A program made the translations under genes and the position numbers. This document shows, piece after piece, positions 4,439-61,436 of a DNA stretch of 64,000 bases. Source of the DNA: an uncultured Pseudomonadales bacterium (GTDB lineage: Bacteria; Patescibacteriota; Microgenomatia; UBA1400; PJMF01); NCBI GenBank assembly GCA_964607285.1, contig CAZSJW010000004.1, positions 7,063 to 71,062 on the forward strand, given 5' to 3'. Position 1 is the first letter of the stretch. The number at the start of each line of letters is the position of its first letter. Below the pieces are notes generated by a model. It worked only from the letters and a program-made list of their open reading frames with translations, was not told the DNA's origin and did not search any database.

Positions 4439-6178
4439 ATGTCTTTTCGTTTTTTCAGCTCAAAATCACCAACACTTACACTATTTTTTCGACATCTTTG
4501 CTCATTTTGGCACCTGTACCTTTTCTTTCTATTCTGGATAAGTTATTTCGCAGTTTTTTGGTCCAACGCAATTTGGCTTGATGAAGTTGGCAACCTAATT
4601 GTGGGGCACATCAATATGTGGGGAGACTGGGCTGTTCACTTTACCATGGGTTCAAGCATGGCATATAAACAATTACTTCCCAGTAGCAGTCCTTTACTGC
4701 TTGGGGAGTCGTTCACCTACCCATTTGGTGCAAACTTCATTTCTGCAGTACTAATCAGACTGGGAATGCCATTCTTCACCGCCTTTCTATTTCCCAGTTT
4801 CCTTGGATCGTTAGCAATTGTCTTTCTGCTGTATGTACTATATTTACAAGTATTTCGCTCATCGGCTACTGCGGTCATAGCCGCTACACTCTTCTTACTG
4901 AATGGAGGTTTAGGTTTTACTAATTTCATTCGAGATGTTTCAAACGCACCAGAACCAATGCAGGTATTACTGCATCCCGAAAAAACCTATTCTGGAGACG
5001 CTGAAAAAAATATTCGCTGGGTGTCCGTGATTGAAACAATGATCATTCCACAGCGTGCATTTGCCATTGGTTTTCCAATTGCCTTGAGTGTATTGGTAGG
5101 ATTTTTCCCACTATTTTTAGAGAGGAAAAAAAGCACAAACCTTCTGAATTCCAAGCAAAAATGGCTTTGGATAGGTCTAATAGTCAGTAGTCTTGGTATA
5201 TTACCTATATTTCATGCCCACTCATTTCTTTCTGTTGTAGTAGTTCTGTTTTTTTGGGGTATCTCTGCAATTGCGCAATCAACACACAAGTCACTGACAA
5301 TTCGCGGGCTTGTCATTACTGCAGTCATGTCCGCAGTGCTTGCCACTCCACTGCTTTTTGCATTTGTTCTTGGCAACTCAACAACAAGTTTTCAAGAGTG
5401 GTTTCCAGGCTGGTATGCCAAGGAGACAGGTGAAAATTTGTTGGCATTCTGGATAAAAAACTGGAGCATCACCCCTATATTGGCAATCAGTGGGTATTTT
5501 TTCACAGTTCGTACTGAAAAAAAACACAAACTATCAATTATTTTGCTTTTCGCTCCTTTTTTCTTGCTTTTCATCCTGGCGAACCTAATCAAACTACAAC
5601 CATTTCTTTGGGACAATACGAAAATAATCGCATGGAGCTCAGTAGGTTTTTCGGGTTTGGCTGCTTATGCATTAGTCCAACTGTATCAAAAAATTTCAGA
5701 CCGAGTAGGCAAGAGGGTTGCCACAACAGTAGTTGCACTACTTTTCCTTTCAATGACGCTAACTGCAGGTATAGACACCTACCGAATACTCCGCGTTTCT
5801 GACCACTCGTACCAAATGTACTCTGCTGATGACTTACTGTTAGCTAATTGGGTACACCAGAATACCGATCCTCAATCAGTGTGGCTAACCGCCGATAATC
5901 ATAACAACTGGCTGTACAACCTGACAGGAAGACAGCCAATCATGGCATATCGTGGTTGGTTGTGGACACATGGTTATTCTTACGAACGGCATGAGCTGTT
6001 GGTAAAAAATCTGTATGCACACCCAGAAAAAACTGCAGATTTTTCTGCTGCAGGCATTCAGTATGTTGTAGTTGGACCCGCGGAAGAATATGACTGGAAG
6101 GCAAGTTCAGCATTGTTCAGTCAGTATTTTGAACCTGTTTTTCGATCTGAACAAACAACTATATTTAAAGTGCCATGA
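4439..6178 (+). CDS. Polytopic integral membrane protein, putative GT-C-type glycosyltransferase; paralog of the 51755-53788 protein
   Basis: >10 predicted TM segments and a C-terminal extracytoplasmic domain; shares a D..H...S....P...P..G....Y pattern and a TGRQ..Y.GWLWTHGY C-terminal motif with ORF 51755-53788. Confidence 0.5.
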   Translation: MSFRFFSSKSPTLTLFFRHLCSFWHLYLFFLFWISYFAVFWSNAIWLDEVGNLIVGHINMWGDWAVHFTMGSSMAYKQLLPSSSPLLLGESFTYPFGANFISAVLIRLGMPFFTAFLFPSFLGSLAIVFLLYVLYLQVFRSSATAVIAATLFLLNGGLGFTNFIRDVSNAPEPMQVLLHPEKTYSGDAEKNIRWVSVIETMIIPQRAFAIGFPIALSVLVGFFPLFLERKKSTNLLNSKQKWLWIGLIVSSLGILPIFHAHSFLSVVVVLFFWGISAIAQSTHKSLTIRGLVITAVMSAVLATPLLFAFVLGNSTTSFQEWFPGWYAKETGENLLAFWIKNWSITPILAISGYFFTVRTEKKHKLSIILLFAPFFLLFILANLIKLQPFLWDNTKIIAWSSVGFSGLAAYALVQLYQKISDRVGKRVATTVVALLFLSMTLTAGIDTYRILRVSDHSYQMYSADDLLLANWVHQNTDPQSVWLTADNHNNWLYNLTGRQPIMAYRGWLWTHGYSYERHELLVKNLYAHPEKTADFSAAGIQYVVVGPAEEYDWKASSALFSQYFEPVFRSEQTTIFKVP

Positions 6179-28209: not shown

Positions 28210-28301
28210 ACTGTTTGATTGGTATTGGTGATTCTACATGAACCACAACAGACAATTATACCACTCCACTCCACATATTTTTGAGGTATAATCGAGACCT
28301 T

Positions 28302-29216
28302 ATGCCAACTACTAAACCAAAATCCAAAGAGTCTAATGAAAAGCCACTTATCATTGATAACACAGTTATCGAGCTAACCGTGGATGCCAAAACCGCTTCC
28401 CATGCCTACGATGAAGCTGTGGAGCACATGGCTAAAAACATCAAAACTGCAGGTTTCCGCAAAGGAAAAGTCCCAACAAAAGCAGCAGAAGCTATGCTCA
28501 AGCAAGAAGATATCATTCAGCATGCCCTCGAACACGTTGTTCCTACTATCTATAAAACAGCAATTGAAAAAGCCAAAAAAGAACCTTTGACACAACCAGA
28601 GTTCAAAGTCATTTCAGCCATAAAAGGCCAAGAATGGAAACTGGAAGCATACATTGCTGAAGCCCCAAGTATTGACCTAAAAAATCACAAAAAAATTGTT
28701 GCTGAAGCAAAGAAACTAGCAGACAAACAACTTGCCGAACAAGAGAAGAAAGCTAAAGCTGACAAAAATACAGAATACAAAGCACCATCAAAAGAACAAA
28801 AGGAGGGAGTAGTTGTCCAAAAGATCTATCAGCAGCTACTTTCGGACATCAAACCACAAATTGCTGAGTTATTGGTAAAAGAAGAAATTCGCGCTGATTT
28901 CGGAAACTTACGCCGACAACTGGACCAGATGAAAATTCCATTGGAGAAGTTTCTTGAATTGAGAAAAATAACTATTGATGATCTCACAAATCAACTAGCT
29001 GCAGAAGCACTTGGCAGATTACAACTGTCTTTCTTAATTGCAGCTATCGCTCGTGAAGCAAAAGTAACTGTGGAGCAAACTGATCTCGAAAAAGCAATGG
29101 CAAAAGTCACTGATGCGGAACTTAAAAAGCAACAGACAGCGGATCCAATGTACCGCCAACTACTAGCGCAAACAATTTTACGAAGAAAAGTTGCTGAGTA
29201 CCTCTTAGGATTGTAG
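28302..29216 (+). CDS. tig: Trigger factor, short form lacking a clear PPIase domain
   Basis: Ribosome-binding signature GFRKGKVP in the N-domain; TATAAT at 28287, so a near-leaderless transcript is possible. Confidence 0.7.
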   Translation: MPTTKPKSKESNEKPLIIDNTVIELTVDAKTASHAYDEAVEHMAKNIKTAGFRKGKVPTKAAEAMLKQEDIIQHALEHVVPTIYKTAIEKAKKEPLTQPEFKVISAIKGQEWKLEAYIAEAPSIDLKNHKKIVAEAKKLADKQLAEQEKKAKADKNTEYKAPSKEQKEGVVVQKIYQQLLSDIKPQIAELLVKEEIRADFGNLRRQLDQMKIPLEKFLELRKITIDDLTNQLAAEALGRLQLSFLIAAIAREAKVTVEQTDLEKAMAKVTDAELKKQQTADPMYRQLLAQTILRRKVAEYLLGL

Positions 29217-40212: not shown

Positions 40213-41241
40213 ATGAATGAAGTATCACAGAATTCTGATGCGATCCTATTTGCTATCATTGAGCGTTCCTTACAACAACAACTAACAAACGATGAGCTGC
40301 GCAATCTAGCTGAACAACTGTTTATTGGTGACCTTACCACTGAGCAAATACTGGCAAACATACAAACTACCACTGAGTACTACCAAAAGTTACGCAATGT
40401 ATTTGAAAGCACAACTAGCCCGCATCAAATGATTGTACGACTTAAGGAGTATTTCTTGCATAAAGCAGCAACCCAACTTATTGTTGCTGAAACAAATGAA
40501 GAGTCGCATATGGCTAAAATGCCTAGCATTTACGCTAGTATCCCTATACAACCAGTGATGCAAGCAGAGCAAAGAAAAAAAACTGAGAATCTAAGAACAT
40601 TAAACGTTATAAACCTGTTTACTAAGTTAGTATCACTAATAAGACCAGATATGAACGAATTGGCTGATCTTCTCAACTCAGATGAAGCTCATCAGAGTGA
40701 TCCAACTTGGTTCAGAAAAGCGGTAGAACACCATCCGCAGTTATCACCAATCCTTTGGCTACTTCCCACTGACCTAACGTACGCAGACTTAAACAAACTC
40801 TGTGAAGCAACTGAGTACAGTTCTACAGGCAAAAAAATCAGGAGATTTGGTGATCGTCAAGTTGCATTTACTACCCCGAGTTTACAAACTATTAATCTCT
40901 CCGGGCCACTGCCCAAAGTGGAGCCCAGTCATGATGAGGAAGAAGTGAGATTTTGGGAAAAATCAGTACCTGAATTGCTCGGTGAGGAGAAGACGCTCAC
41001 AACCCTAACACTTAACCTGGAAGAAACTGAACTCGATGAGCTTTACAATAGTATTCTACTTCCATTTTTACAGAAAAGAATGTTGGCTCAGGTAGCAATG
41101 ACTGCGATATATAGCAGCAAATATTACCATAAAATCTCAGAATTGATTGACCCCGATCCGATAAAGGCAGAGCGCGCAATTAGATTTATAGGATTAGTAC
41201 TTACACAGAAAGTCCTAGGAACTCAACAACATGAAAACTAA
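40213..41241 (+). CDS. Hypothetical protein (342 aa) in the position E. coli uses for the pheM leader
   Basis: Strong RBS AGGGAG; 11-nt overlap with the pheS start. Confidence 0.5.
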   Translation: MNEVSQNSDAILFAIIERSLQQQLTNDELRNLAEQLFIGDLTTEQILANIQTTTEYYQKLRNVFESTTSPHQMIVRLKEYFLHKAATQLIVAETNEESHMAKMPSIYASIPIQPVMQAEQRKKTENLRTLNVINLFTKLVSLIRPDMNELADLLNSDEAHQSDPTWFRKAVEHHPQLSPILWLLPTDLTYADLNKLCEATEYSSTGKKIRRFGDRQVAFTTPSLQTINLSGPLPKVEPSHDEEEVRFWEKSVPELLGEEKTLTTLTLNLEETELDELYNSILLPFLQKRMLAQVAMTAIYSSKYYHKISELIDPDPIKAERAIRFIGLVLTQKVLGTQQHEN

Positions 41242-43015
41242 CCTCATTTACCTCTCAGAGTCATATACTAAACATACAACAGCAAAAATAGTGACAGTCG
41301 ATACCTCGGGAAACCAACCATTCATCATCCTCAACCAAACAGTTTTCTACGCCCAGGGCGGGGGACAACCAGCTGACAACGGAACCATCACCGGGAAAAA
41401 TGGTGTCATGGCTGTAACCCATGTGTCATACAACGGAGGAGAGCTGCAACACAAAGGCACAATCACTGGAACACTGGCAGCAGGAGACACTGTTGAACTA
41501 GAAATTGACTGGGAGCGCAGATATCGCCACATGCAACTACACACTGCAGGTCATATCTTAGATCAGGCAGTAAAAAATGCAGTGCCAAACTGTAAGGGTG
41601 TGGACGGCAATCATGGGTTGAGCAAAAAACCGTATGTTGAGTTTGACGCTGCTATTCAAGCATCGGACATCCCTGCAATTCAAGAGCAACTAGATGCAAT
41701 CAGAGTAGCTAATCTGCCTATCACTGCTGAGATGGTTACATATGACCAATTGGTGGCTCGTAATATTACGCTCCCTTTTGATTTGCCGAAGAACAAAGAA
41801 CTCCGCATTGTCCAAATTGGCGAGTATCCAACCATGCCTGACGGCGGTACTCAACTCAAGACTACTAGCGAATGCTTGCCTATTACAGCAACAGGCGTGG
41901 AAGCAGTACAAACAGAAACTGGCGACCGTTGGCGCGTCTACTACTCAGTTGGAGAGACAACTGCGGTGCAAGCCTCCAAACCACAATCCAGTGACAACAC
42001 AGTGCCTGAGGAATTTCAAACAGCCGTCCAAGCATTCATCACACAAAGCGCAACAGATACCACCCCCGCAGCAATTACCAAAGCTTTCAAGGCACTGACA
42101 ACGCAACTCAAATCAGTCCCCAAAGACCAAAAACCTGCCGCAGGCAAACTCCTAAACCAAGCCAAAGAAGCCATGGAAGCCCGCATCGCCGCCCTCGCCA
42201 GTAACCCAACAACCACCCAAACCTGGCAAGACCTAACCATGCCAGGCATCGCCCCAGCAATTGGCCACATCCACCCTGTCTCACAGGCCATGGAAGAAAT
42301 CACCCATATCTTCGAGCAAATCGGCTTCACCAGAGTTCGCTATCCAGAGGTAGATTGGGATTGGTATGTGTTCGAGAGTCTCAACATGCCACCCAGCCAC
42401 CCTGCTCGTGATGAGTGGGAGACGTTTTGGGTAGACTTGCCACCAAACAACGAAAAGGGGACAGTAGTTTTGACAACCCACACCTCCAATGGCCAAGTAC
42501 GGGAGATGGAGAGACTGAACAGCAAGCCGCCGATCCGCATGATCAACATCGCCCGCTGCTACCGCCGCCAGCAAGATGCCACACACACCCAAATGTTCCA
42601 CCAATTCGAGGGTTTGGTTGTGGACAAAGGCATCACCATTCAGCACCTCAAGGGAACGTTAGATTATTTCGCCAAAGAATTTTATGGTGAAGGTGTCAAA
42701 TCCCGTATCCGTCCGTTTCACTTTCAGTTTACTGAGCCGTCATTTGAGGTAGATTTCTCGTGTACCGTTTGCGATGGCACGGGCAAGGTTGGAACCGACA
42801 AATGTAAGTTCTGCAAATCGGGTTGGCACGAAGTCGGGGGCGCTGGCATGGTGCACCCTAATGTGCTCAAGGCTGGTGGCATAGACCCAGAGGAGTACAC
42901 TGGATTTGCTTTCGGATGGGGAATAGAGCGAACATACACGCTCAAACCAGGTTTGCATATCGATGACATTAGACAATTTTATAGCTCAGACCTCAGGTTC
43001 CTGCGCCAATTCTAA
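41231..43015 (+). CDS. pheS: Phenylalanine-tRNA ligase alpha subunit with an N-terminal AlaX-like (AlaRS editing-type, tRNA_SAD) domain
   Basis: C-terminal half has PheS class-II motifs (FTEPSFEVD, GWHEVGGAGMVHPNVL, GFAFGWGIERT); N-terminal ~250 aa has TVFYAQGGGQPADNGTI and HTAGHIL (HxxxH), as in AlaX/AlaRS editing domains. Confidence 0.8.
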   Translation: MKTNLIYLSESYTKHTTAKIVTVDTSGNQPFIILNQTVFYAQGGGQPADNGTITGKNGVMAVTHVSYNGGELQHKGTITGTLAAGDTVELEIDWERRYRHMQLHTAGHILDQAVKNAVPNCKGVDGNHGLSKKPYVEFDAAIQASDIPAIQEQLDAIRVANLPITAEMVTYDQLVARNITLPFDLPKNKELRIVQIGEYPTMPDGGTQLKTTSECLPITATGVEAVQTETGDRWRVYYSVGETTAVQASKPQSSDNTVPEEFQTAVQAFITQSATDTTPAAITKAFKALTTQLKSVPKDQKPAAGKLLNQAKEAMEARIAALASNPTTTQTWQDLTMPGIAPAIGHIHPVSQAMEEITHIFEQIGFTRVRYPEVDWDWYVFESLNMPPSHPARDEWETFWVDLPPNNEKGTVVLTTHTSNGQVREMERLNSKPPIRMINIARCYRRQQDATHTQMFHQFEGLVVDKGITIQHLKGTLDYFAKEFYGEGVKSRIRPFHFQFTEPSFEVDFSCTVCDGTGKVGTDKCKFCKSGWHEVGGAGMVHPNVLKAGGIDPEEYTGFAFGWGIERTYTLKPGLHIDDIRQFYSSDLRFLRQF

Positions 43016-43034
43016 ACTACACCGAAAGAAACTT

Positions 43035-45023
43035 ATGAACATCCTCATCCCACACTCTTGGCTCGCAGAACATCTGGAAACCGACGCCACCCCAGAAGAA
43101 CTCCAAGCCAACCTCTCCCTCTGCGGCCCATCCGTGGAGCGCATTTACGATCGCCAAGGCGAGCCTGTCTATGACATCGAAGTCACCACCAACCGTGTTG
43201 ACAGCATGTGCGTGCGTGGCGTTGCTCGTGAAGCAGGGGTTATCCTCAAGCAGTTTGGCAAACAAGCCAAGTTCTTGGAGAGAGCAGACCTCAGCCAAAA
43301 ACCACAACCAACTGGCGAGACGCTGCCTCTACCAAAAATCGTCAACAACCCCAAACTCTGCAAGCGGGTGTTGTGTGCAGTCCTAGATGGAGTAGAGCGA
43401 ACACCTACCCCCGCATGGATGGCCAAACGTCTCGAGCAAACAGACCAAAATGTCCACGACAGCGTCATTGACATCACCAACTACATTACGCACGAACTCG
43501 GACATCCTTGTCATGCGTTCGACTACGATGCAGTGATGGCATCTGGCGGCGTGATTATCGTCAAGGAAGCCGCACCTGACAAGAAGTTCAAAACCCTGGA
43601 CGGCCTAGAGTTCACCACCGTGGGTGGGGAAGTAGTGTTCGAGAATGAAGCAGGAGAAATTATTGATTTACCAGCCATAAAGGGCACAGCAAACACCTCG
43701 ATTTCTGACAAAACCAAGCGAGTGCTGCTCTGGATTGAGAACTTAGACGCCGAAAAAGTTCGGTTTGCCTCCATGACACATGCTATTCGCACGGTGGCGG
43801 CTCAGCTATCGGAGAAACATGTGGATCCAGCTTTGGGTGAAATCGTGTTATACCGTGGGATTCAACTCTATCAAGAACTTTGCAATGCCAGACTAGCCAG
43901 CCAAATATTTGACGAGTTCCCTGGCAAAGCTTCACCCACCACAGTTGAGCTTTCCCTTGAAAAGGTCAAACAGTACCTCGGACTAGAAATCCCATCCGAT
44001 CGCATCGAGGAAATCCTAAGAGACCTCGGTTGCCAAGTTCAGCTGAAAGGCAGACAACTTTCGGTCACACCGCCAACCTTTCGTCATGATTTAGCAATTC
44101 CTGCAGACATAATCGAGGAAATTGCTCGAGTCTACGGCTATCACATGCTACCAAGCACCTTGATGGATTCAAAAATCCCACTGGAGAAACCTCAGGGCTT
44201 TGATAGCTACCTCGAGTCTCGGCTGAAACGCTTCCTAGCAGCCATCGGCATGCAAGAAGTCTACACCTACTCGATGGTAAGTGAGGAAATTGCTCGGCAG
44301 TCAGGCTATGCTCTGAATGAGCAACTTAAACTTAAGAATCCGCTCACCGATGATCGGCTCTATTTGCGCCGGTCGCTTATTCCTTCCCTGGAGGAGGTGT
44401 TCACCAACAATCCGAATGATCAGCAGACCTCAATCTTCGAGTTTGCGAATGTGTATCATCCTCGCAAGGATGATCTGCCAGATGAGACAACACAGATTGG
44501 TATGCTGGGTACGGCAGGATATCGCTCATTGCGTGGGCAGGTGGAAGCATTGCTGGCACAGATGTTCTTGCTTGCAGTTGTCATCACTCCTCACGAGACT
44601 GCGCTACCTGACTTTTCGCAATCTGGCAACATCGTTACTACAGATGGCGTAGAGCTGGGTCACATAGGTGTTACTAAGCAGGGGAGAGCAGCTGCATCGT
44701 TGTCGCTGTCTGCTTTGACACAACATGCAAAGACGCACCCAACGTATGAACCACTGCCAAAAGCTGCTCCTGTTATTGAAGACTTGACCTTCACTTTGCC
44801 AGAAAAAACCCCAGTCGGAACAGTCTTGCAAACTATGCGCTCCGCCGATGCATTAGTGCATTCAGTTGATCTGGGCAGCGTGTACAATCAGAACTACAGT
44901 TTTCACATTGTCTATGCCGAACCAGAAGCCACACCAGCACCAGAAAAAATTGAAGCAATCAGAAAAATCTTGGTTACCCAAGTGGCTACAAAGCACCAAG
45001 GTACCTTGGTTGGCACAGTCTAG
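43035..45023 (+). CDS. pheT: Phenylalanine-tRNA ligase beta subunit (short form without the OB-fold tRNA-binding domain)
   Basis: B3/4 domain (YDIEVTTNRVDSMCVRGVARE..HPCHAFDYD), B5, and a C-terminal FDX-like domain; the N-terminal region jumps directly into B3/4. Confidence 0.8.
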   Translation: MNILIPHSWLAEHLETDATPEELQANLSLCGPSVERIYDRQGEPVYDIEVTTNRVDSMCVRGVAREAGVILKQFGKQAKFLERADLSQKPQPTGETLPLPKIVNNPKLCKRVLCAVLDGVERTPTPAWMAKRLEQTDQNVHDSVIDITNYITHELGHPCHAFDYDAVMASGGVIIVKEAAPDKKFKTLDGLEFTTVGGEVVFENEAGEIIDLPAIKGTANTSISDKTKRVLLWIENLDAEKVRFASMTHAIRTVAAQLSEKHVDPALGEIVLYRGIQLYQELCNARLASQIFDEFPGKASPTTVELSLEKVKQYLGLEIPSDRIEEILRDLGCQVQLKGRQLSVTPPTFRHDLAIPADIIEEIARVYGYHMLPSTLMDSKIPLEKPQGFDSYLESRLKRFLAAIGMQEVYTYSMVSEEIARQSGYALNEQLKLKNPLTDDRLYLRRSLIPSLEEVFTNNPNDQQTSIFEFANVYHPRKDDLPDETTQIGMLGTAGYRSLRGQVEALLAQMFLLAVVITPHETALPDFSQSGNIVTTDGVELGHIGVTKQGRAAASLSLSALTQHAKTHPTYEPLPKAAPVIEDLTFTLPEKTPVGTVLQTMRSADALVHSVDLGSVYNQNYSFHIVYAEPEATPAPEKIEAIRKILVTQVATKHQGTLVGTV

Positions 45024-55452: not shown

Positions 55453-55974
55453 TTAGTTTTCGATTGCTAGCCAGTTAGCGCCAAATGTTTTTCCATCGTT
55501 TGTTACTGCGCGAATCTGAACCCCACTAGATTCCATTAAAAAAATATAGTCATCAGGATCTGGCAAGTTTTGCTTGGTAAAAGATGTATGTACAATGACA
55601 CGTCTTCCATCAGGTAAATAAACATTGCCTATGTCTACTGCCACCATACAGGTTTCGACATTAGTATCACCTACTTTTTCTCGTGTGACTGTAATGCCTT
55701 CTACATCCAGATCGCCTGAAAGAATCAGTATGCATAAGTCTTCTATTCGTTCAAACTCAAACTTTTCTTCTACATTTACCAGACCGTTTCCTTGGATTTC
55801 CTGATCAACTGTACTATCAGCTTCCGCATTACCTCCAACGCAACCCACACCGAGCAGCAAAATTAAACACGCCGCCCAAGGTCTTAGTGATGTAAAAATG
55901 TCTCTAAGCGAACCGCGAAGCAGCTCTAGCTTGGGAACTCGCAATTGTTTTTTTTCTTGAGAATTTATTTGCAT
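55453..55974 (-). CDS. Hypothetical secreted or membrane-anchored protein
   Basis: N-terminal hydrophobic segment followed by a soluble domain. Confidence 0.4.
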   Translation of the reverse strand: MQINSQEKKQLRVPKLELLRGSLRDIFTSLRPWAACLILLLGVGCVGGNAEADSTVDQEIQGNGLVNVEEKFEFERIEDLCILILSGDLDVEGITVTREKVGDTNVETCMVAVDIGNVYLPDGRRVIVHTSFTKQNLPDPDDYIFLMESSGVQIRAVTNDGKTFGANWLAIEN

Positions 55975-56052
55975 ATCTCCTTTTAGGTGATTTTTGCGAA
56001 TTATAAGCCACTAATATACTGTTGGCAAGTTGCCAATGAAGTCAGCTTTCCC

Positions 56053-56080
56053 TTGCAAACCAAGCTTTTTCCGCTATACT
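56053..56080 (+). promoter_or_regulatory. Sigma70-like promoter TTGCAA-16-TATACT driving the tyrA-tyrS leader
   Basis: Good -35 and -10 with 16-nt spacer; predicted TSS about 7 nt before the leader ATG. Confidence 0.4.
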
Positions 56081-56093
56081 TGTTTCGAACGAA

Positions 56094-56162
56094 ATGAAAA
56101 CCAAGCAACAAAACACCAGCTACTATTACACCTACTCCACACTCGTCGAGGCAGGTTTGTAA
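56094..56162 (+). CDS. Putative 22-aa Tyr-rich leader peptide MKTKQQNTSYYYTYSTLVEAGL
   Basis: ATG..TAA ORF with four Tyr codons in five consecutive codons (TAC TAT TAC ACC TAC), between the promoter and the terminator upstream of tyrA. Confidence 0.45.
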   Translation: MKTKQQNTSYYYTYSTLVEAGL

Positions 56163-56187
56163 GTACGCTCCCTATATAGTAAATAAC

Positions 56188-56213
56188 AACCTCCGCCGAG
56201 ACGGGGGTTTTTT
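56188..56213 (+). terminator. Intrinsic terminator/attenuator hairpin immediately upstream of tyrA
   Basis: AACCTCCG/CGGGGGTT stem with loop CCGAGA followed by TTTTTT; near-identical to the rplT terminator. Confidence 0.5.
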
Positions 56214-56245
56214 GCATCTCGAAAGTAATTCATACGAAAGCATCT

Positions 56246-57040
56246 ATGTCCAACACAAGTAAACACAACACCAGACTGGCAATTGTCGGCTTCGGTAAGT
56301 TTGGGCAACTTCTACATCACCTTTTTAGCCAAATACCATGGCTTGAGTTGGTAGTTGTTTCTGGCCAGAAGCTAAAACAACCGATTCACCAGATCTCCTA
56401 CTCAGAACTCGGTGCAGTTGACATTATCATACCCTGTGTGCCGATTCGAGCCTTTCGCCCGGTAGTTAAGCAAATTATGCCACACTGCAAACCTGGAGTA
56501 ACTATCCTTGATGTTTGCTCAGTCAAGGTTTTTCCTACGCAGATTCTCCTAGATCATGCAGCACTAGATACTTACCTTGTTACCTGCCACCCAATGTTCG
56601 GTTCGACAACGATTGCAGAACAAGGATCGGCTGAAGGGTTGCCAGTCACTATTTGGAATGTTCGCTCTTCCAAACATGCGTACTCCCAAGTTAAGCGAAT
56701 TTGGCAAGAACTGGCGGTGCGGCTAGTCGAAATCTCTCCAGAGGAGCACGACCAGCAAGCTGCGCGATCTCAGGCATATGCGCAGCTGATTGGCAAATTG
56801 GGAGCACGTATGCAGCTGAACGCTTCACCTCTGGACACAGTTTGGTTTACCCGGCTACTAGAAATTCAGTCTACAGTCGAGCAGAACACCCAAGAGCTAT
56901 TTATGGATACCCAGGTCTTTAACCCTTACGCCAAGCAGATGCGAGCAGAACTACAAACGAAGCTCGTGCAGCTCGAAACGGACATCCAAGCATTTGCCAC
57001 CACCCAAGTATCGAGTACAATACAGAAGGAGATCCTATGA
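56246..57040 (+). CDS. tyrA: Prephenate/arogenate dehydrogenase (TyrA family)
   Basis: N-terminal Rossmann AIVGFGKFG, CHPMFG, EEHD; stop overlaps the tyrS start (ATGA). Confidence 0.65.
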   Translation: MSNTSKHNTRLAIVGFGKFGQLLHHLFSQIPWLELVVVSGQKLKQPIHQISYSELGAVDIIIPCVPIRAFRPVVKQIMPHCKPGVTILDVCSVKVFPTQILLDHAALDTYLVTCHPMFGSTTIAEQGSAEGLPVTIWNVRSSKHAYSQVKRIWQELAVRLVEISPEEHDQQAARSQAYAQLIGKLGARMQLNASPLDTVWFTRLLEIQSTVEQNTQELFMDTQVFNPYAKQMRAELQTKLVQLETDIQAFATTQVSSTIQKEIL

Positions 57041-58941
57041 AATTCACAATATCCGAGTCAGTTTTTTCCCGTTTATCAAACTATACTGTTGGGGTGCTTA
57101 TTCTTGATGGGCTGAGTCAAAACGAGCATGATCAGGCTGCATTATCAGATTTGACGGCAAAACTGATCAACGAAGCCAAGCCACATTCATCAAGTGACGA
57201 ACGCATCACAGACTGGCAAACTGCTTTCAAAGCAGCTGGCGTATCTGGAGATGTCAAACCAGCCCATCAGACTCTACTCGAGCGTCTGCAGAAAACTGGC
57301 TCACTACCAAATGTTCTGCCGCTAGTAAATCTAACCAACGCACTTTCAGTCAAACATTTAGTCCCGATCGGAACACACACACTGGATATGCTCGATGGTG
57401 ACCTAGAGGCTCGACTCACTGAAAATTCGGATTCATTTATCCCCATAAACGCAACTCAAAGAGAGCAAATCCCTGCAGGCGAACTGGCTCTTACCTCCGA
57501 TAATACCATTTTAACCAGAAATCTAGTTTGGCGCCAAGGTGAGACTTCTAAAATCACCGACCACTCTCGATCTGTTGCTATACTTATTGATGCAGTCGGC
57601 TCACAGGCAGAAGAAGTAGTGCAAAAGGTTCTGAATGAGATCAAAACAGCAATTAGTGTTGTTTTTGGTATCACGGAAAGTAAGTCGTCTATTCTTTCCC
57701 TGTCAAACCCTGAGTTTTCCTGGACTGATACCAGCAATCCAGAGGAGAAAAAACAAAATCAAAAATTGCATTCCGTTCTCACCAGAGGAGTCTCCGAAGT
57801 TCTCCCCAGCAAAGATGGCCTGGCAGCCATCATGCATAAAAAGAAAATCCGAGTTTTCCTAGGCATTGACCCTACTGGCTCACTCCTAACCCTCGGCCAC
57901 AGCGTAGTTCTGCGTAAACTCCAGCAGTTTGCAGATCTGGGCCAGGAAGTAATCCTCCTCATCGGCAGCGGCACAGTCCGCATCGGTGACCCAACCGGCA
58001 AGGACTCCACCAGGCCAGAACTAACCGATGAGCAAATTCAAGCAAACTTCAAGAACTGGAAAGAGCAGGCCAGCAAGATCTTGGATTTCGACAAGATCAA
58101 AATAGTCTACAACGGTGACTGGCTTGATGAGCTCACCTACGCTGATCTGGTCAAGCTCATGGCAAAAACTACTGTTCAACAGCTTATCGAGCGAGATATG
58201 TTCCAAGATCGCCTCAAAAACGGCAAACCTATCTTTGGTCACGAGATCATGTACCCTTTACTCCAAGGCTACGACTCGGTACACATGGATGTAGACCTGG
58301 AAATTGGGGGTACTGACCAGACCTTCAACATGATGATGGGTCGCCACCTGCAAAAAGCCTACAACAACCACGAAAAATGGGTGCTAACTACCCCCATCAT
58401 CAACGGTACAGACGGCCGCAAGATGAGTAAGTCATACGGCAATTTTGTGGCAATCACAGAAGAGCCCAGGCAAATGTACGGCAAACTGATGTCGATTGCT
58501 GATGACATGATCCTAGAGTACTTCACACTTCTGACGGACACCCCAGAGACTGACCTTGCAACCATAGCGGCAAACATGGCTGCGGGGGACAATCCCATGG
58601 AGTTTAAAAAGCGCTTAGCCTTTACCATCACCGAGCAGTACCACACCACTGCTGCAGCAACCGACGCGGCTGAGTTTTTCACCAGCACTGTGCAAAATAA
58701 ATCAGTGCCAGATGATGTTCTAGAAGTACAGCTAGAGTCTTCAGATAAGACCGCTTTGGATGTGCTGAAACGGGCTGTTCCGGAGCGCAGTAATACTGAG
58801 TTACGACGGTTGGTAGAGCAGGGGGCTGTTACGATTTTGCCAGGTGATCAAAAAATTACGGACGCAACACAAGAGTTAGACATTGCGGATGGTACAGTCA
58901 TCAAAATTGGCAAGCGTAGGTTTGTCAAACTGCGTAAGTAA
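57037..58941 (+). CDS. tyrS: Tyrosine-tRNA ligase with an N-terminal B3/4 (PheT editing-domain-like) domain fusion
   Basis: Residues ~1-235 show the B3/4 pattern (LPNVLPLVNLTNALSVKHLVPIGTHTLDML.GDLEARL..); the C-terminal ~400 aa is TyrRS (GIDPTGSLLTLGH, KMSKS, S4-like C-terminus). Confidence 0.8.
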   Translation: MKFTISESVFSRLSNYTVGVLILDGLSQNEHDQAALSDLTAKLINEAKPHSSSDERITDWQTAFKAAGVSGDVKPAHQTLLERLQKTGSLPNVLPLVNLTNALSVKHLVPIGTHTLDMLDGDLEARLTENSDSFIPINATQREQIPAGELALTSDNTILTRNLVWRQGETSKITDHSRSVAILIDAVGSQAEEVVQKVLNEIKTAISVVFGITESKSSILSLSNPEFSWTDTSNPEEKKQNQKLHSVLTRGVSEVLPSKDGLAAIMHKKKIRVFLGIDPTGSLLTLGHSVVLRKLQQFADLGQEVILLIGSGTVRIGDPTGKDSTRPELTDEQIQANFKNWKEQASKILDFDKIKIVYNGDWLDELTYADLVKLMAKTTVQQLIERDMFQDRLKNGKPIFGHEIMYPLLQGYDSVHMDVDLEIGGTDQTFNMMMGRHLQKAYNNHEKWVLTTPIINGTDGRKMSKSYGNFVAITEEPRQMYGKLMSIADDMILEYFTLLTDTPETDLATIAANMAAGDNPMEFKKRLAFTITEQYHTTAAATDAAEFFTSTVQNKSVPDDVLEVQLESSDKTALDVLKRAVPERSNTELRRLVEQGAVTILPGDQKITDATQELDIADGTVIKIGKRRFVKLRK

Positions 58942-59106
58942 GTTGTACAATGCGCTCAAACACACAAACAAATATATGAAAAAAAGATTTCGCAAAGGAT
59001 TACTCACTGCATTTGTTATTATTGCTATAGTTGGACTCGTTTTGAGTACTTTCCTTGGCAGCTTACTACTGTTAGTATAATCACTTCGCCTAATACTATG
59101 GGCGGT

Positions 59107-59140
59107 TAGCAGAGCAAAGCTTTGTCTGCTAATTTTACCC
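59107..59140 (+). terminator. Putative rho-independent terminator after tyrS
   Basis: TAGCAGAGCAAAG/CTTTGTCTGCTA hairpin followed by a T-rich tract. Confidence 0.4.
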
Positions 59141-59202
59141 CGTTTGATTTTTTCCCGCTATATCGATATATTTTGGTTCTGTTAAATATAGTCTGAATAA
59201 TA

Positions 59203-59231
59203 TTGATTCCTTTGTGCGTAACAGATATAAC
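59203..59231 (+). promoter_or_regulatory. Sigma70-like promoter TTGATT-17-TATAAC upstream of recG
   Basis: Predicted TSS coincides with the start of the long inverted repeat. Confidence 0.35.
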
Positions 59232-59330
59232 TCTTTTTCTGAGTGTGTCCTCGTGCGTCCCTGAAGGCCCACTGAGCATGATCGCAAATGTGGGGACTTC
59301 ATTCCACGAGGACTCACTCAGAAAAAGAAG
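59231..59330 (+). repeat. 23-bp near-perfect inverted repeat (22/23) with a ~50-nt structured spacer in the recG 5' leader
   Basis: ctctttttctgagtgtgtcctcgtg ... cacgaggactcactcagaaaaag; an inner GTCCC/GGGAC stem extends it; ends 18 nt before the recG ATG. Confidence 0.6.
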
Positions 59331-59348
59331 CGAGGTATACTAATACAC

Positions 59349-61436
59349 ATGTACACGTTCGCCACTCCACTGGAAACCGTCAAAGGCATTGGTCCTAAGT
59401 TACAGCAACTACTTGTTGATGCAAGCATTTTCACCGTTGGTGACCTACTTAAAACCGTACCGCTTGGCTACGACGATCGATCACAGTTGCTACCTGTTGC
59501 AGAACTCAAAACACAAGAACCAAACGCACCATGCAGCATCAAAGCGCAGGTGTTCAACACCAGTATGGTTCGCAGACCTGGACGCACAATGCAGACTGCT
59601 ACGGTCAAAGATGAAAGTGGCAGCACCAAGCTGCTGTGGTTTAACAACTCCTTTGTAATCCCATCTCTCAAACGGGGGGAGTGGTACTACTTTGCAGGTA
59701 AAATCAGCAAAACTGGCACTCTAATTCAACCAACTTTTGAACGCGCAACTGGAGAGACTCTTCACACAAATCGCCTTGTACCAAGGTACACCGGTACGCT
59801 CCTACTCAAACAAGGCTCACTGCGACGAATTCTCAAGCATATTTTGGATGACTTACTCAAGAATGATGTGCCTGAAGATGACGAACTTACTCAAGTAGCA
59901 GCAAAACTATCCTATAGCGTTCCTACAATACTACAAAGTCTATCAATCTTGCACTTTCCCGACTCGCAAGAGGCTGTTCCTGCGGCACGAGAACGCTTAG
60001 CCCTAGAAGAACTGATCTCACTCATCAAAGAATCGAAACGCCTAAAACTCGAGTGGCAGGAAATGAGTACGCCCAGTGCGCAACTCAAGCAACTACCCGA
60101 ACGTCACGAATCCGAGCAGAGTATTACAACAATTCTAGGCACTTACAATCTACCGACCTTACCATTTTCCCTGACTGCAGCACAGCAAAAAAGCCTGACA
60201 GACATCCTCAACGACCTGAGCAACACGCAACCCATGAATAGACTCCTAGTGGGCGACGTGGGATCTGGTAAAACAATTGTCGCATTCCTCGCACTCGAAG
60301 CAATCATTCTATCAGGTTCGCACGCTGTCCTGATTGCGCCTACTCAGATCTTAGCGGAACAACACGCTCGAAAATTTGTCGAGCAGTTTCCCCAGATTCC
60401 AAGCATGCTCATAACAGGCAAGTCACTCCGAGAAACCCCAGAAACACCCACCTGCCTGATTGGAACACATGCTATCCTCAGTCGCTGGGAACAACTATCC
60501 GAACATGCCTCGGTGGGATTAGTAGTCTTTGACGAGCAACACAGATTCGGGGTAGGACAGCGTTCTGAACTCTTTGCGCATACCAACGAAACAATTCCAC
60601 ATCGCCTAACGATGACTGCTACACCAATCCCCAGAAGCTTGATGCTAACGATTTTTTCACACCTCTCACTCTCTGTGATAGATGAGCTACCAGCTAACCG
60701 CTTGCCCACGAAAACATGGCTGCTGCCAGAGAAGAAGCGTGAAAACTTTCACGAGTGGCTTGCAACCGAGATCAAGACAGGAAAGTCCCGTGAAAAATTA
60801 TTCCAGGCTATAATTGTCTGCCCTTTCATTGATAAATCGGAGCAGGAAAGTCATGAGCATATTCCAGCAGCCACGGATCGCTTTGCCGAGTTGCAATCAT
60901 GGGCTTCACAAAACCAGATCAAGATTGCACTCCTGCACAGTAGACTGCCCGCCAAACAGAAACAAACAACCATAACAGCTTTGTTTGCCGGTGAAATTGA
61001 TGTGCTGGTTACCACCCCAATTGTTGAGGTTGGTGTGGATATTCCCCAAGCCAGCGCCATGGTTATAGAAGCTGCCGAACGATTTGGCTTGGCAAGTCTC
61101 CATCAGCTTCGGGGTAGAGTAGGAAGAGCAGGACAGCAGGGGTACTGTGCTTTGTTTCGCTCGCCAGATTCACCCAGCACACCCAATAAACGACTCAAGT
61201 TATTCACTGAGACAAACTCAGGGCAAGAGTTAGCAGATCTAGACTTACAATTCCGAGGTCCAGGCGATCTTTTTGGCACCCAACAAAGCGGCTTTGATCA
61301 CCTGCAGTTTGCCAGCTGGACAAACTTTGAGCTAATTGGCAGAGCAAAGCACATCGCCGATCATCTTTCTCCCGATTGGCAATCGTTCTTGACTACGCAT
61401 AATACAGGACGTGACTTTACGCTGCTCGCAAACTAG
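59349..61436 (+). CDS. recG: ATP-dependent DNA helicase RecG
   Basis: N-terminal wedge region (TPLETVKGIGPK), helicase motifs GDVGSGKT and DEQHRFGV, TRG motif region. Confidence 0.85.
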   Translation: MYTFATPLETVKGIGPKLQQLLVDASIFTVGDLLKTVPLGYDDRSQLLPVAELKTQEPNAPCSIKAQVFNTSMVRRPGRTMQTATVKDESGSTKLLWFNNSFVIPSLKRGEWYYFAGKISKTGTLIQPTFERATGETLHTNRLVPRYTGTLLLKQGSLRRILKHILDDLLKNDVPEDDELTQVAAKLSYSVPTILQSLSILHFPDSQEAVPAARERLALEELISLIKESKRLKLEWQEMSTPSAQLKQLPERHESEQSITTILGTYNLPTLPFSLTAAQQKSLTDILNDLSNTQPMNRLLVGDVGSGKTIVAFLALEAIILSGSHAVLIAPTQILAEQHARKFVEQFPQIPSMLITGKSLRETPETPTCLIGTHAILSRWEQLSEHASVGLVVFDEQHRFGVGQRSELFAHTNETIPHRLTMTATPIPRSLMLTIFSHLSLSVIDELPANRLPTKTWLLPEKKRENFHEWLATEIKTGKSREKLFQAIIVCPFIDKSEQESHEHIPAATDRFAELQSWASQNQIKIALLHSRLPAKQKQTTITALFAGEIDVLVTTPIVEVGVDIPQASAMVIEAAERFGLASLHQLRGRVGRAGQQGYCALFRSPDSPSTPNKRLKLFTETNSGQELADLDLQFRGPGDLFGTQQSGFDHLQFASWTNFELIGRAKHIADHLSPDWQSFLTTHNTGRDFTLLAN

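What the first reader, a model, noticed from the sequence alone, without database searches (positions are those of the whole stretch)
57037..58941. TyrRS carrying an N-terminal B3/4 (PheRS editing-type) domain
The 634-aa ORF is about 200 aa longer than a normal TyrRS. The C-terminal ~400 aa are a clear TyrRS (GIDPTGSLLTLGH HIGH region, RKMSKSYGN, S4-like tail). The first ~235 aa show the B3/4-domain pattern seen in the PheT editing module and in free-standing B3/4 proteins (LPNVLPLVNLTNALSVKHLVPIGTHTLD..GDLEARL..E.F). In PheRS, B3/4 hydrolyses Tyr-tRNAPhe, so a B3/4 module fused in cis to TyrRS suggests a Tyr/Phe proofreading or tRNA-handling role that I do not know to be described. The gene sits in a tyrosine locus: leader attenuator, tyrA, tyrS.
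Basis: partly seen in the sequence, partly recalled or inferred. Interest (0 to 1): 0.6.

Follow-up and report, generated by a model that had tools for sequence, protein, structure and literature searches.

The report
TyrRS fused to CtdA-type deacylase domain
A candidate-phyla-radiation bacterium's tyrosyl-tRNA synthetase carries a conserved N-terminal domain of the family that strips the toxic amino acid canavanine off tRNA, which suggests a proofreading module on a synthetase that normally has none.

Summary
Window 57037..58941 (+) is one 634-aa ORF. Residues 1-~228 are a B3/4 domain (Pfam PF03483, E=1e-16). Residues ~246-634 are a complete bacterial TyrRS (TIGR00234, 319 bits). It is not an assembly artefact: the same fusion occurs in 15 close protein clusters and about 20 distant ones.

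The N-domain is not the PheT editing type. It is a full-length copy of the free-standing CtdA fold (canavanyl-tRNAArg deacylase; Foldseek TM 0.83, against ~0.5 for PheRS beta). Residues shown by mutagenesis to be needed for CtdA activity (N, G, Q) are kept. Three pocket residues differ (E118->H, C166->T, I189->L).

Across 168 relatives the pocket residue tracks the fusion partner: His with TyrRS (38/40), Glu with ArgRS (11/11), and Asp, Gln or Tyr with LysRS.

Most likely function, inferred and not shown: a cis post-transfer editing domain that removes a tyrosine-like non-cognate amino acid from tRNATyr. The substrate is unknown.

The idea that the domain compensates for a defective PheRS editing site was tested and is not supported. 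The domain is dispensable: syntenic relatives with 82% identical cores lack it.

A Tyr-codon leader peptide plus terminator precedes tyrA-tyrS. I found no publication describing this fusion.

The parts
56094..56162 (+). Leader peptide ORF MKTKQQNTSYYYTYSTLVEAGL* (4 Tyr codons, 3 of them consecutive)
   Evidence: Translation, sequence. Equivalent Tyr-rich leaders occur upstream of tyrA-tyrS in L001-L003 (MRSCLRISSYYYYTSPDLVAS) and directly upstream of a fused tyrS in L085 (..ASYYYSSPTLGE).
56188..56215 (+). Intrinsic-terminator-like hairpin (AACCUCCGCC-GAGAC-GGGGGUU) plus U-run, between the leader ORF and tyrA. Its 5' arm can pair instead with the end of the leader ORF.
   Evidence: It is the only terminator-like site in 55900-59400. 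The MFE fold shows the alternative pairing. The same arrangement is seen in L001 and L085. No Rfam family matches.
56246..57040 (+). tyrA-like prephenate/arogenate dehydrogenase, 264 aa. Its stop codon overlaps the tyrS start (ATGA).
   Evidence: Pfam PDH_N E=2.4e-15. The best NCBIfam prephenate dehydrogenase model gives E=3e-26 but scores below its curated cut-off. ORF coordinates.
57037..58941 (+). tyrS: the whole fused gene, 634 aa plus stop
   Evidence: AF2 full-length model has mean pLDDT 88.6 and pTM 0.70.
57037..57720 (+). CtdA-type B3/4 domain (aa 1-228). Pocket positions are N101, G112, H114, T160, Q167 and L183. The R161/W165/R166 motif is conserved.
   Evidence: Pfam B3_4. phmmer to CtdA 9f7e E=8e-11 and 9mkl E=8e-9. 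AF2 N-domain model has pLDDT 94.3 and pTM 0.92. Foldseek TM 0.83 to 9f7e over 227 columns. Conservation analysis.
57721..57771 (+). Inter-domain linker (aa ~229-245) running into the first TyrRS helix
   Evidence: The pLDDT block for residues 231-240 is 72, and a helix spans 235-249. Unfused relatives start about 10 residues before the conserved VLTRGV.
57772..58695 (+). TyrRS class I catalytic domain plus the helical region that follows it (aa ~246-553). TLGH lies at 285-288 and KMSKS at 462-466.
   Evidence: Pfam tRNA-synt_1b E=5e-65, TIGR00234, invariant columns in A1.
58696..58938 (+). C-terminal S4-like tRNA-binding domain of bacterial TyrRS (aa ~554-634)
   Evidence: TIGR00234 alignment runs to aa 633. 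Pfam SYY_C-terminal is weak here, 16.3 bits against a cut-off of 27. It is recorded among the precomputed domains of P0005, P0009 and P0014, and P0183 scores 47.5 bits. The AF2 model is folded here at pLDDT ~88.

Best explanation
The N-terminal 228 residues are a CtdA-family aminoacyl-tRNA deacylase domain recruited as a cis-acting post-transfer editing module of TyrRS.

Proposed mechanism, inferred by analogy with CtdA and the PheRS B3/4 domain:
1. TyrRS charges tRNATyr.
2. If the attached residue is a tyrosine-like non-cognate amino acid, the 3' end is captured by the B3/4 pocket. This could be the pocket of the same polypeptide or of the partner subunit of the dimer.
3. The ester bond is hydrolysed, with the conserved Asn (N101) placed next to the scissile ester.
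4. Pocket residues H114, T160 and L183 select the side chain.
5. Correct Tyr-tRNATyr is spared by pocket discrimination and by release to EF-Tu.

The actual substrate is unknown. Candidates are L-DOPA, meta/ortho-tyrosine, halogenated or nitrated tyrosine, and D-tyrosine.

The module is accessory. It is present in a minority of related TyrRS genes and has been repeatedly lost or gained at an orthologous locus. The gene is co-transcribed with tyrA behind a tyrosine-codon leader-peptide attenuator, so its expression should rise when charged tRNATyr is scarce.

What is shown: domain identity, fold, conservation, co-variation with the fusion partner, and synteny. What is inferred: catalysis, the tRNATyr target and the direction of regulation.
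For: (1) Family and fold. The only PDB sequence hits are CtdA. Foldseek gives TM 0.83 at 2.5 A over 227 of 231 residues of CtdA 9f7e, while PheRS beta chains reach only ~0.5, using a high-confidence model (pLDDT 94.3).

(2) Catalytic competence. The equivalents of CtdA N105, G116 and Q173 are kept (N101, G112, Q167). Mutation of each of these inactivates CtdA (PMC12449066). In the 16 close fused sequences, whose N-domains are only 32-42% identical to the window's, 29 columns are invariant. They include G112, H114, T160, W165, R166, Q167 and D185; N101 is conserved in 15 of 16. Against the 94-member H/T subfamily the window keeps 16 of 20 residue positions that are at least 80% conserved.

(3) Rosetta-stone co-variation. 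The position aligned to the CtdA pocket residue E118 is His in 38 of 40 TyrRS fusions and Glu in 11 of 11 ArgRS fusions and in CtdA. In the five LysRS-type fusions it is Asp in 3, Gln in 1 and Tyr in 1. Four of these five partners were confirmed as LysRS with NCBIfam; the fifth, P0223, is a fragment. A neighbour-joining tree groups the sequences by this signature.

(4) The same H/T-type domain is also found fused to a tRNA_bind domain (P0122, L054). It also occurs together with a YbaK-type tRNA_edit domain on TyrRS (P0123, L058). This fits a role on aminoacyl-tRNA.

(5) N-domain divergence scales with core divergence just as in other fused pairs: 37% against 40 +/- 4.5% at ~66% core identity. 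The domain therefore co-evolves with its TyrRS.

(6) PMC12449066 states that CtdA-like proteins lacking C166 probably have a deacylase activity of undetermined specificity.
Against: - There is no biochemical evidence for any H/T-type member.
- TyrRS is classically regarded as accurate enough to need no editing (background knowledge).
- A domain that binds a Tyr-like moiety and is tethered to TyrRS risks futile hydrolysis of the correct product.
- The closest relatives (82% identical core, same PBP-CAP-tyrA-tyrS-recG synteny) lack the domain entirely, so it is not essential.
- Fused forms are only 16 of the 120 nearest TyrRS clusters.
- The window protein differs from its subfamily at two well-conserved positions: Y152L, and P183L at a pocket position.
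- The association between pocket residue and partner rests on a limited number of independent fusion events, and two TyrRS fusions carry other signatures (Y/C and D/C).
- I could not inspect model coordinates, so the geometry between the pocket and the synthetic site is unknown.
Confidence: 0.55

Rival explanations
1. The domain is a tyrosine-specific deacylase that works in trans like the PheRS editing site. It would clear Tyr (or m-Tyr) from tRNAPhe or other wrongly tyrosylated tRNAs, compensating for a weak PheRS editing site.
For: The B3/4 superfamily ancestor is thought to have had Tyr/mTyr-tRNA hydrolytic activity (PMC12449066). The conserved His and Thr in the pocket could hydrogen-bond a phenol. 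The window PheT has Trp where E. coli has E334, the residue I recall (not checked in a paper here) as contacting the Tyr hydroxyl. It also has N for R244 and D for A312.
Against: All 120 nearest PheT homologues keep the equivalents of N254, H265, F267, G318, T354 and A356 invariant, and Y255 in 119 of 120. All have W/L/F at the E334 position except one, with a conserved Glu or Asp two residues later. The pattern is the same on contigs with fused TyrRS (window; P0368 with P0011) and on many with unfused TyrRS. There is therefore no correlation with the fusion, and the PheRS editing domain looks selected. None of the top 150 relatives is fused to PheRS, whereas fusions are to TyrRS, ArgRS and LysRS, each with a matching pocket residue. 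CtdA did not rescue a PheRS editing mutant. A Tyr-specific hydrolase tethered to TyrRS would destroy the enzyme's own product.
Confidence: 0.12
2. The domain is not catalytic. It would be an appended tRNA-acceptor-binding or dimer-stabilising module, an amino-acid-binding regulatory module, or a decaying relic in this lineage.
For: Many synthetases of candidate-phyla-radiation (CPR) bacteria carry appended RNA-binding domains, for example B2-TyrRS (PMC5370408). The domain is dispensable in the nearest relatives. The window copy carries Y152L and P183L. In the same genome an AlaX-like domain on PheS has lost part of its zinc motif.
Against: Conservation is concentrated on the residues that line the CtdA aminoacyl pocket and that are required for CtdA activity, rather than spread over a surface. 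The window keeps 16 of 20 subfamily-conserved residue positions. Its N-domain divergence is within 1 sd of the trend for other fused pairs. The pocket residue co-varies with the amino-acid class of the partner.
Confidence: 0.2
3. The fusion is an assembly, frameshift or gene-calling artefact, and the B3/4 protein is really a separate upstream gene.
For: Free-standing ~233-aa homologues are the majority form of the family.
Against: The frame is open throughout, with no stop or alternative start pattern. The identical architecture appears in dozens of independent assemblies from four sources. The linker and the first TyrRS helix are modelled continuously.
Confidence: 0.01

Closest known systems
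CtdA, canavanyl-tRNAArg deacylase (PDB 9f7e, 9mkl; PMC10018355, PMC12449066)
   Same: The fold matches over the whole length, including the CtdA-specific helical insert (TM 0.83). The size is the same, ~230 aa. The conserved Asn, Gly and Gln, the W-R-Q motif and the D/E of the pocket are shared.
   Different: This copy is fused to a synthetase instead of free-standing. Pocket positions differ: E118->H, C166->T, I189->L (P in most TyrRS fusions). The partner is TyrRS, not ArgRS, so canavanine is not the expected substrate. It probably belongs with the uncharacterised non-C166 branch ('CtdA-2'), but I could not verify that assignment.
B3/4 editing domain of the PheRS beta subunit
   Same: Same superfamily (Pfam PF03483) and the same general chemistry, hydrolysis of a mis-acylated tRNA. 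The catalytic-site Asn is shared.
   Different: TM is only ~0.5 and identity ~10%. The topology inserts differ, and the other PheRS editing residues are not shared. The genome has its own normal PheT B3/4 domain.
B2-TyrRS fusions of CPR bacteria (Mukai et al. 2017, PMC5370408)
   Same: A PheRS-beta-derived domain is fused to the N-terminus of a TyrRS in candidate-phyla-radiation bacteria.
   Different: That domain is the OB-fold B2 RNA-binding domain, fused to an archaeal-type TyrRS. Here a B3/4 deacylase-type domain is fused to a bacterial-type TyrRS (TIGR00234 319 bits against 83 for the archaeal-type model NF006330).
Cis editing domains of other synthetases, and D-Tyr-tRNA deacylase (DTD)
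   Same: The proposed role is the same: post-transfer clearance of a wrong aminoacyl group. DTD is the known factor that clears D-Tyr from tRNATyr.
   Different: The folds are unrelated (CP1, INS/YbaK, N2/AlaX, DTD). As far as I know, no canonical TyrRS has an editing domain.

Membership tests
Bacterial tyrosyl-tRNA synthetase (class Ic) | Rossmann-fold catalytic domain with HIGH-type and KMSKS motifs, scoring above the curated family cut-off | tested here: met
   PF00579 E=5e-65. TIGR00234 scores 318.9 bits against a cut-off of 113.8. TLGH at 285-288 (clade-wide variant) and KMSKS at 462-466.
Bacterial tyrosyl-tRNA synthetase (class Ic) | C-terminal S4-like tRNA-binding domain | tested here: inconclusive
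   The TIGR00234 alignment extends to aa 633 and the AF2 model is folded there. Pfam SYY_C-terminal scores only 16.3 bits against a cut-off of 27 in the window protein.
Bacterial tyrosyl-tRNA synthetase (class Ic) | Tyrosylation of tRNATyr | not testable with these tools
   Needs an aminoacylation assay.
B3/4 domain superfamily (Pfam PF03483) | Profile match above the gathering threshold | tested here: met
   61.5 bits against a cut-off of 29.3, aa 72-187.
CtdA family (canavanyl-tRNAArg deacylase) | CtdA-type B3/B4 fold including the family-specific helical insert | tested here: met
   Foldseek TMq 0.83 and TMt 0.84 over 227 columns to 9f7e. Helices at residues 33-107 of the model correspond to the insert.
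CtdA family (canavanyl-tRNAArg deacylase) | Activity-critical residues N105, G116, Q173 | tested here: met
   N101, G112 and Q167 are present. Their roles come from PMC12449066.
CtdA family (canavanyl-tRNAArg deacylase) | Canavanine-pocket residues E118, C166 (strictly conserved in CtdA-1) and I189 | tested here: not met
   The window has H114, T160 and L183. H/T is the rule in TyrRS fusions (38 of 40).
CtdA family (canavanyl-tRNAArg deacylase) | Free-standing ~230-aa protein | tested here: not met
   It is fused to TyrRS in one ORF.
CtdA family (canavanyl-tRNAArg deacylase) | Hydrolysis of canavanyl-tRNAArg | not testable with these tools
   Needs a deacylation assay. Not expected, given the pocket and the partner.
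PheRS beta-subunit editing domain | Editing-site residue set (E. coli R244, N254, Y255, H265, F267, A312, G318, E334) and a position between the B1/B2 and B5 domains | tested here: not met
   The domain is at the N-terminus of TyrRS with no B5 or CLM domains. The CtdA branch, to which this domain aligns, shares only the Asn with PheRS. TM to PheRS beta is ~0.5.
Leader-peptide transcription attenuator (trp/pheA/pheST type) | Short ORF enriched in codons of the regulated amino acid, followed by a terminator with a competing alternative pairing, upstream of the operon | tested here: met
   A 22-codon ORF with YYY-Y, then a hairpin plus U-run 26 nt downstream, with an alternative pairing in the MFE fold. 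It is conserved in L001-L003 and L085. Function was not tested.

The most novel reading that the evidence does not exclude
The CtdA-like B3/4 scaffold is a general, re-programmable post-transfer editing module. It has been recruited in cis by synthetases that have no canonical editing domain: TyrRS, ArgRS, and class I and class II LysRS. One pocket position (114 here, E118 in CtdA) encodes the side-chain class: His for tyrosine-like, Glu for arginine-like, Asp for lysine-like. The fusions would then act as Rosetta stones. They would assign the many uncharacterised free-standing H/T-type proteins (Thermodesulfobacteriota, Ktedonobacterales, Gemmatimonadota, Actinomycetota, some Bacillota) to quality control of tRNATyr against a natural tyrosine analogue. 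That would reveal a proofreading step for tyrosine that textbooks say does not exist.
Probability: 0.35. Interest if true: 0.8.

Novelty: new variant of a known kind. Interest (0 to 1): 0.66.

Why it matters
As far as I know, TyrRS, ArgRS and LysRS are synthetases without a dedicated post-transfer editing domain. A conserved, apparently intact deacylase domain fused to TyrRS suggests that some bacteria do proofread tRNATyr. The parallel fusions to ArgRS and LysRS have pocket residues that match the charge or polarity of the partner's amino acid.

This gives a concrete, testable handle on a question the CtdA literature leaves open: what the CtdA-like proteins lacking the canavanine-specific Cys act on (PMC12449066). 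It also points to an unknown tyrosine analogue as a selective pressure in the habitats of these organisms. A naturally modular editing domain could also be useful for engineering orthogonal TyrRS/tRNA pairs.

Tried and rejected
- The word-indexed homologue search with the N-domain alone found nothing. The exhaustive representative search was needed.
- An exact look-up of the window protein's contig failed, so the source genome could not be named. The best relatives are annotated Patescibacteria or Woesebacteria.
- The afdb50 fold library was unavailable.
- Rfam found no T-box or other known leader upstream of tyrA.
- The gene neighbourhoods of 34 free-standing homologues gave no neighbour conserved across phyla. 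Judged by eye from their sequences and not scanned, the neighbours look like oxoacid:ferredoxin oxidoreductase subunits, a sigma-54 regulator, 5-oxoprolinase-like genes and similar. This gave no functional clue.
- The PheRS-compensation hypothesis was tested and rejected.
- The idea that the window copy is a decaying relic was examined. There are only two notable substitutions and divergence is on trend, so it is not favoured but not excluded.
- Supplementary tables of PMC12449066 are not held, so I could not check whether the H/T subfamily equals 'CtdA-2'.
- Co-occurrence with dtd could not be tested, because only +/-10 kb around hits can be fetched.
Full report
**1. Observation**

Window 57037..58941 (+) is a single 634-aa ORF.
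- Pfam finds a B3/4 domain (PF03483, aa 72-187, E=1e-16, 61.5 bits against a cut-off of 29.3).
- Pfam also finds a class I W/Y synthetase core (PF00579, aa 268-550, E=5e-65).
- NCBIfam's bacterial tyrS equivalog TIGR00234 covers aa 240-633 at 319 bits against a cut-off of 113.8.
- KMSKS is intact. The HIGH region reads TLGH, a variant shared by all 43 aligned relatives.

The fusion is not an artefact. A search of 5.8 billion proteins returns 15 further clusters of 616-638 aa with precomputed PF03483+PF00579, at 51-58% identity over 99-100% of the query. They come from NCBI, JGI, ENA and Logan assemblies. An exhaustive HMMER search with the N-domain finds about 20 more full-length B3/4-TyrRS representatives at the 50%-identity clustering level.

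**2. What the N-domain is**

Against PDB sequences, the N-terminal 240 aa hit only two proteins: CtdA of Pseudomonas canavaninivorans (9f7e, E=8e-11) and the CtdA entry 9mkl (E=8e-9), which I take to be the Salmonella enterica structure of PMC12449066.
- An AlphaFold2 model of aa 1-235, built on 16 fused homologues, is very confident (pLDDT 94.3, pTM 0.92).
- It superposes on CtdA over essentially the whole chain: TM 0.83, rmsd 2.5 A, 227 columns of 231 residues.
- PheRS beta chains reach only TM ~0.5 at 8-12% identity.

So the domain belongs to the free-standing CtdA-like branch of the B3/4 superfamily, not to the PheT editing module. CtdA is an experimentally proven canavanyl-tRNAArg deacylase (PMC10018355, PMC12449066). 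Its aminoacyl pocket is lined by N105, G116, E118, C166, Q173 and I189. N105A, G116H/W and Q173G inactivate it, and C166 tunes specificity.

In the window protein the equivalents are N101, G112, H114, T160, Q167 and L183. The residues needed for activity are kept, and three pocket positions, including the specificity-tuning C166, are changed.

**3. Conservation**

The N-domains of the 15 close fused homologues are only 32-42% identical to the window's, while the cores are 63-70% identical. Even so, 29 columns are invariant across the 16 sequences, among them W60, H77, R83, G112, H114, T160, W165, R166, Q167, G168 and D185. N101 is conserved in 15 of 16.

Against the 94 sequences that share the H114/T160 signature, 20 residue positions are at least 80% conserved. 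The window keeps 16 of them and departs at Y152 (L), pocket position P183 (L), S76 (A) and A79 (T). Its N-domain divergence lies within one standard deviation of the trend set by other fused pairs. The domain is therefore under constraint and co-evolves with its TyrRS.

**4. The wider pattern**

Among the best 150 relatives of the N-domain most are free-standing proteins of about 230-240 aa, but many are fusions:
- TyrRS: about 20 full-length representatives plus fragments.
- ArgRS: 11 representatives. One has a tandem B3/4.
- Class II LysRS: P0148 and P0225, both above the NCBIfam lysS cut-offs.
- Class I LysRS: P0174 with the domain N-terminal, P0216 with it C-terminal.
- A tRNA_bind domain: P0122 and L054.
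- A GNAT domain: P0164.
- Two TyrRS proteins that also carry a YbaK-type tRNA_edit domain: P0123 and L058.

In a MAFFT alignment of 166 N-domains plus the two CtdA structures, the scaffold residues (N101, G112, R161, W165, R166, Q167) are conserved throughout. The position equivalent to CtdA E118 follows the partner:
- His in 38 of 40 TyrRS fusions.
- Glu in 11 of 11 ArgRS fusions and in CtdA.
- Asp in 3, Gln in 1 and Tyr in 1 of the five LysRS-type fusions.

The C166 position is Thr in 38 of 40 TyrRS fusions and Cys or Thr in ArgRS fusions. The I189 position is Pro in 35 of 40 TyrRS fusions and Ile or Val in ArgRS fusions.

A neighbour-joining tree groups the sequences by these signatures. 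Free-standing proteins are interleaved with the fusions in each group.

An acidic residue opposite basic side chains and a histidine opposite a phenol is chemically sensible. The ArgRS fusions carry the same Glu as CtdA, the one member with a known substrate, and about half also carry its Cys. This is the main argument that the TyrRS-linked domain recognises a tyrosine-like aminoacyl group on tRNATyr.

The caveat is that the number of independent fusion events is small and was not corrected for phylogeny. Two TyrRS fusions have other signatures.

**5. Distribution and dispensability**

In GTDB species representatives, the exact motif scan recovered TyrRS fusions only in Patescibacteria (L006, L032, L045, L058). 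It recovered free-standing H/T-type genes in several other groups:
- Thermodesulfobacteriota and Syntrophaceae
- Ktedonobacterales and Thermogemmatispora, including the cultured strain T81
- Gemmatimonadota
- Actinomycetota
- Melghirimyces algeriensis

One fused representative (P0162, L084) sits on a 60.5% GC contig next to MurT/GatD genes, so the fusion probably also exists outside the candidate phyla radiation (CPR).

The nearest TyrRS cores (P0013 and P0015, 82-83% identical) are about 400 aa and lack the domain. Their loci (L001-L003) show the same gene order as the window: PBP, a 210-aa ORF, CAP, a 164-aa ORF, tyrA, tyrS, recG. A fused relative (P0003, L085) has PBP-PAP2-tyrS-recG. Presence or absence is therefore a property of one orthologous locus.

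On a neighbour-joining tree of the cores, fused genes are scattered among unfused ones. Only 16 of the 120 nearest clusters are fused. The module is accessory and has been repeatedly lost, or less likely regained. This fits a conditionally useful detoxifying or proofreading function, as for CtdA.

**6. Rival tested: compensation for PheRS**

The window also contains pheS (41231..43015) and pheT (42963..45023). PheT has its own B3/4 (E=4e-38), B5 and CLM domains.

Aligned to E. coli PheT, it keeps N254, Y255, H265, F267 and G318. It has N for R244, D for A312 and W for E334. T354 and A356, read from the T. thermophilus alignment, are also kept.

In the 120 nearest PheT homologues:
- The equivalents of N254, H265, F267, A312 (as D), G318, T354 and A356 are invariant, and Y255 is kept in 119 of 120.
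- The E334 column is W in 75, L in 42, F in 2 and E in 1.
- A conserved Glu or Asp lies two residues later.
- The pattern is identical on contigs that carry fused TyrRS (window; P0368 with P0011) and on many that carry unfused TyrRS.

The PheRS editing domain is thus conserved, and its peculiarity is clade-wide and unrelated to the TyrRS fusion. The compensation idea is not supported.

**7. Regulation**

Between the divergent upstream gene and tyrA lies a 22-codon ORF, MKTKQQNTSYYYTYSTLVEAGL (56094..56162). It is followed by the only terminator-like hairpin of the region (56188..56209, plus a U-run). The 5' arm of that hairpin can pair instead with the end of the leader ORF.
- L001-L003 have MRSCLRISSYYYYTSPDLVAS plus a terminator at the same place.
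- L085 has ..ASYYYSSPTLGE plus a terminator directly in front of its fused tyrS, with no tyrA.
- No Rfam family matches.

This has the anatomy of a classical ribosome-mediated attenuator responding to charged tRNATyr. The tyrA stop overlaps the tyrS start (ATGA), so the two genes are probably translationally coupled. The function is inferred, not tested.

**8. Literature**

- The CtdA papers do not mention synthetase fusions.
- They state that the non-C166 branch ('CtdA-2') probably has an undetermined deacylase specificity.
- Mukai et al. 2017 describe a B2 (OB-fold)-TyrRS fusion in CPR bacteria, which is a different domain.
- Searches for B3/4, COG3382 or PF03483 with TyrRS, and for Patescibacteria with editing domains, found nothing relevant.
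- The architecture is visible in precomputed Pfam annotations, and NCBI simply names the proteins 'tyrosine--tRNA ligase'.

The sequences are therefore in databases, but the feature appears not to have been described or interpreted.

**9. Verdict**

The interpretation needs correcting: the domain is CtdA-type, not PheT-type, and there is no link to PheRS. With that correction the core idea survives and is strengthened: this is a proofreading-type deacylase module on TyrRS.

Best explanation: a cis post-transfer editing domain for a tyrosine-like non-cognate aminoacyl-tRNATyr, confidence about 0.55. The substrate is unknown.

It is a new variant of a known kind. It makes an explicitly open question, the specificity of CtdA-like proteins, directly testable.

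Noticed in passing
window 41231..43015 (+), pheS: PheRS alpha is 594 aa, with a ~280-aa N-terminal extension that is an AlaX-M-type editing-domain homologue. Pfam matches the tRNA-synt_2c tail (aa 18-96, E=1.6e-15) and weakly tRNA_SAD. PDB hits include AlaX-M 2e1b at E=5e-16. The HxxxH zinc motif is kept (HTAGH), but the CxxxH motif reads DGGTQ, so it may be inactive or re-purposed. This is a second synthetase with an appended editing-type domain in the same genome.
   Followed up: partly
window 56094..56215 (+); also L001 ~5017..5130, L085 ~4676..4790: A conserved Tyr-codon leader peptide (S-Y-Y-Y-x-S/T) plus intrinsic terminator lies upstream of tyrA-tyrS, or directly upstream of tyrS in L085. 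It looks like a ribosome-mediated attenuator in Patescibacteria and has no Rfam match. I did not search the literature for this.
   Followed up: partly
window 56246..57040 (+), tyrA: A lone prephenate/arogenate dehydrogenase is translationally coupled to tyrS. Among the roughly 40 window ORFs scanned with Pfam, no other aromatic amino-acid biosynthesis gene was found; the hits are housekeeping genes. The more distant fused relative L085 has no tyrA at this position.
   Followed up: partly
proteins P0121, P0181, P0192, P0193, P0199, P0211, P0215, P0231, P0238, P0248, P0265 (ArgRS); P0148, P0225 (class II LysRS); P0174, P0216 (class I LysRS): CtdA-like B3/4 domains are fused in cis to ArgRS and to both classes of LysRS. 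All ArgRS fusions carry the Glu found at CtdA E118, and about half carry its Cys. P0121 carries two tandem B3/4 domains. The CtdA papers I read do not mention these fusions.
   Followed up: partly
L058:216-2672 (Patescibacteria MAG JBDRHZ010000036.1) and P0123: These TyrRS proteins carry two different editing-type domains. L058 has B3/4, then YbaK-type tRNA_edit, then TyrRS. P0123 has tRNA_edit, then B3/4, then TyrRS.
   Followed up: partly
L054:4001-5125 (Dojkabacteria) and P0122: An H/T-type B3/4 domain is fused to a tRNA_bind (EMAP/Trbp111-like) domain. It looks like a self-contained trans-editing factor with its own tRNA handle.
   Followed up: no
window 42963..45023 (+), pheT, and 120 homologues (P0271-P0390): In this clade the PheRS editing-site Glu (E. 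coli E334) is replaced by Trp or Leu, with a conserved Glu two residues downstream. R244 is mostly Asn and A312 is always Asp. The B1/B2 region is shortened, so the B3/4 domain starts at aa 133. The editing pocket may be re-wired.
   Followed up: partly
window 28281..29216 (+): The trigger factor is only 311 aa, with Trigger_N and Trigger_C Pfam hits and no hit or room for the central PPIase domain.
   Followed up: no
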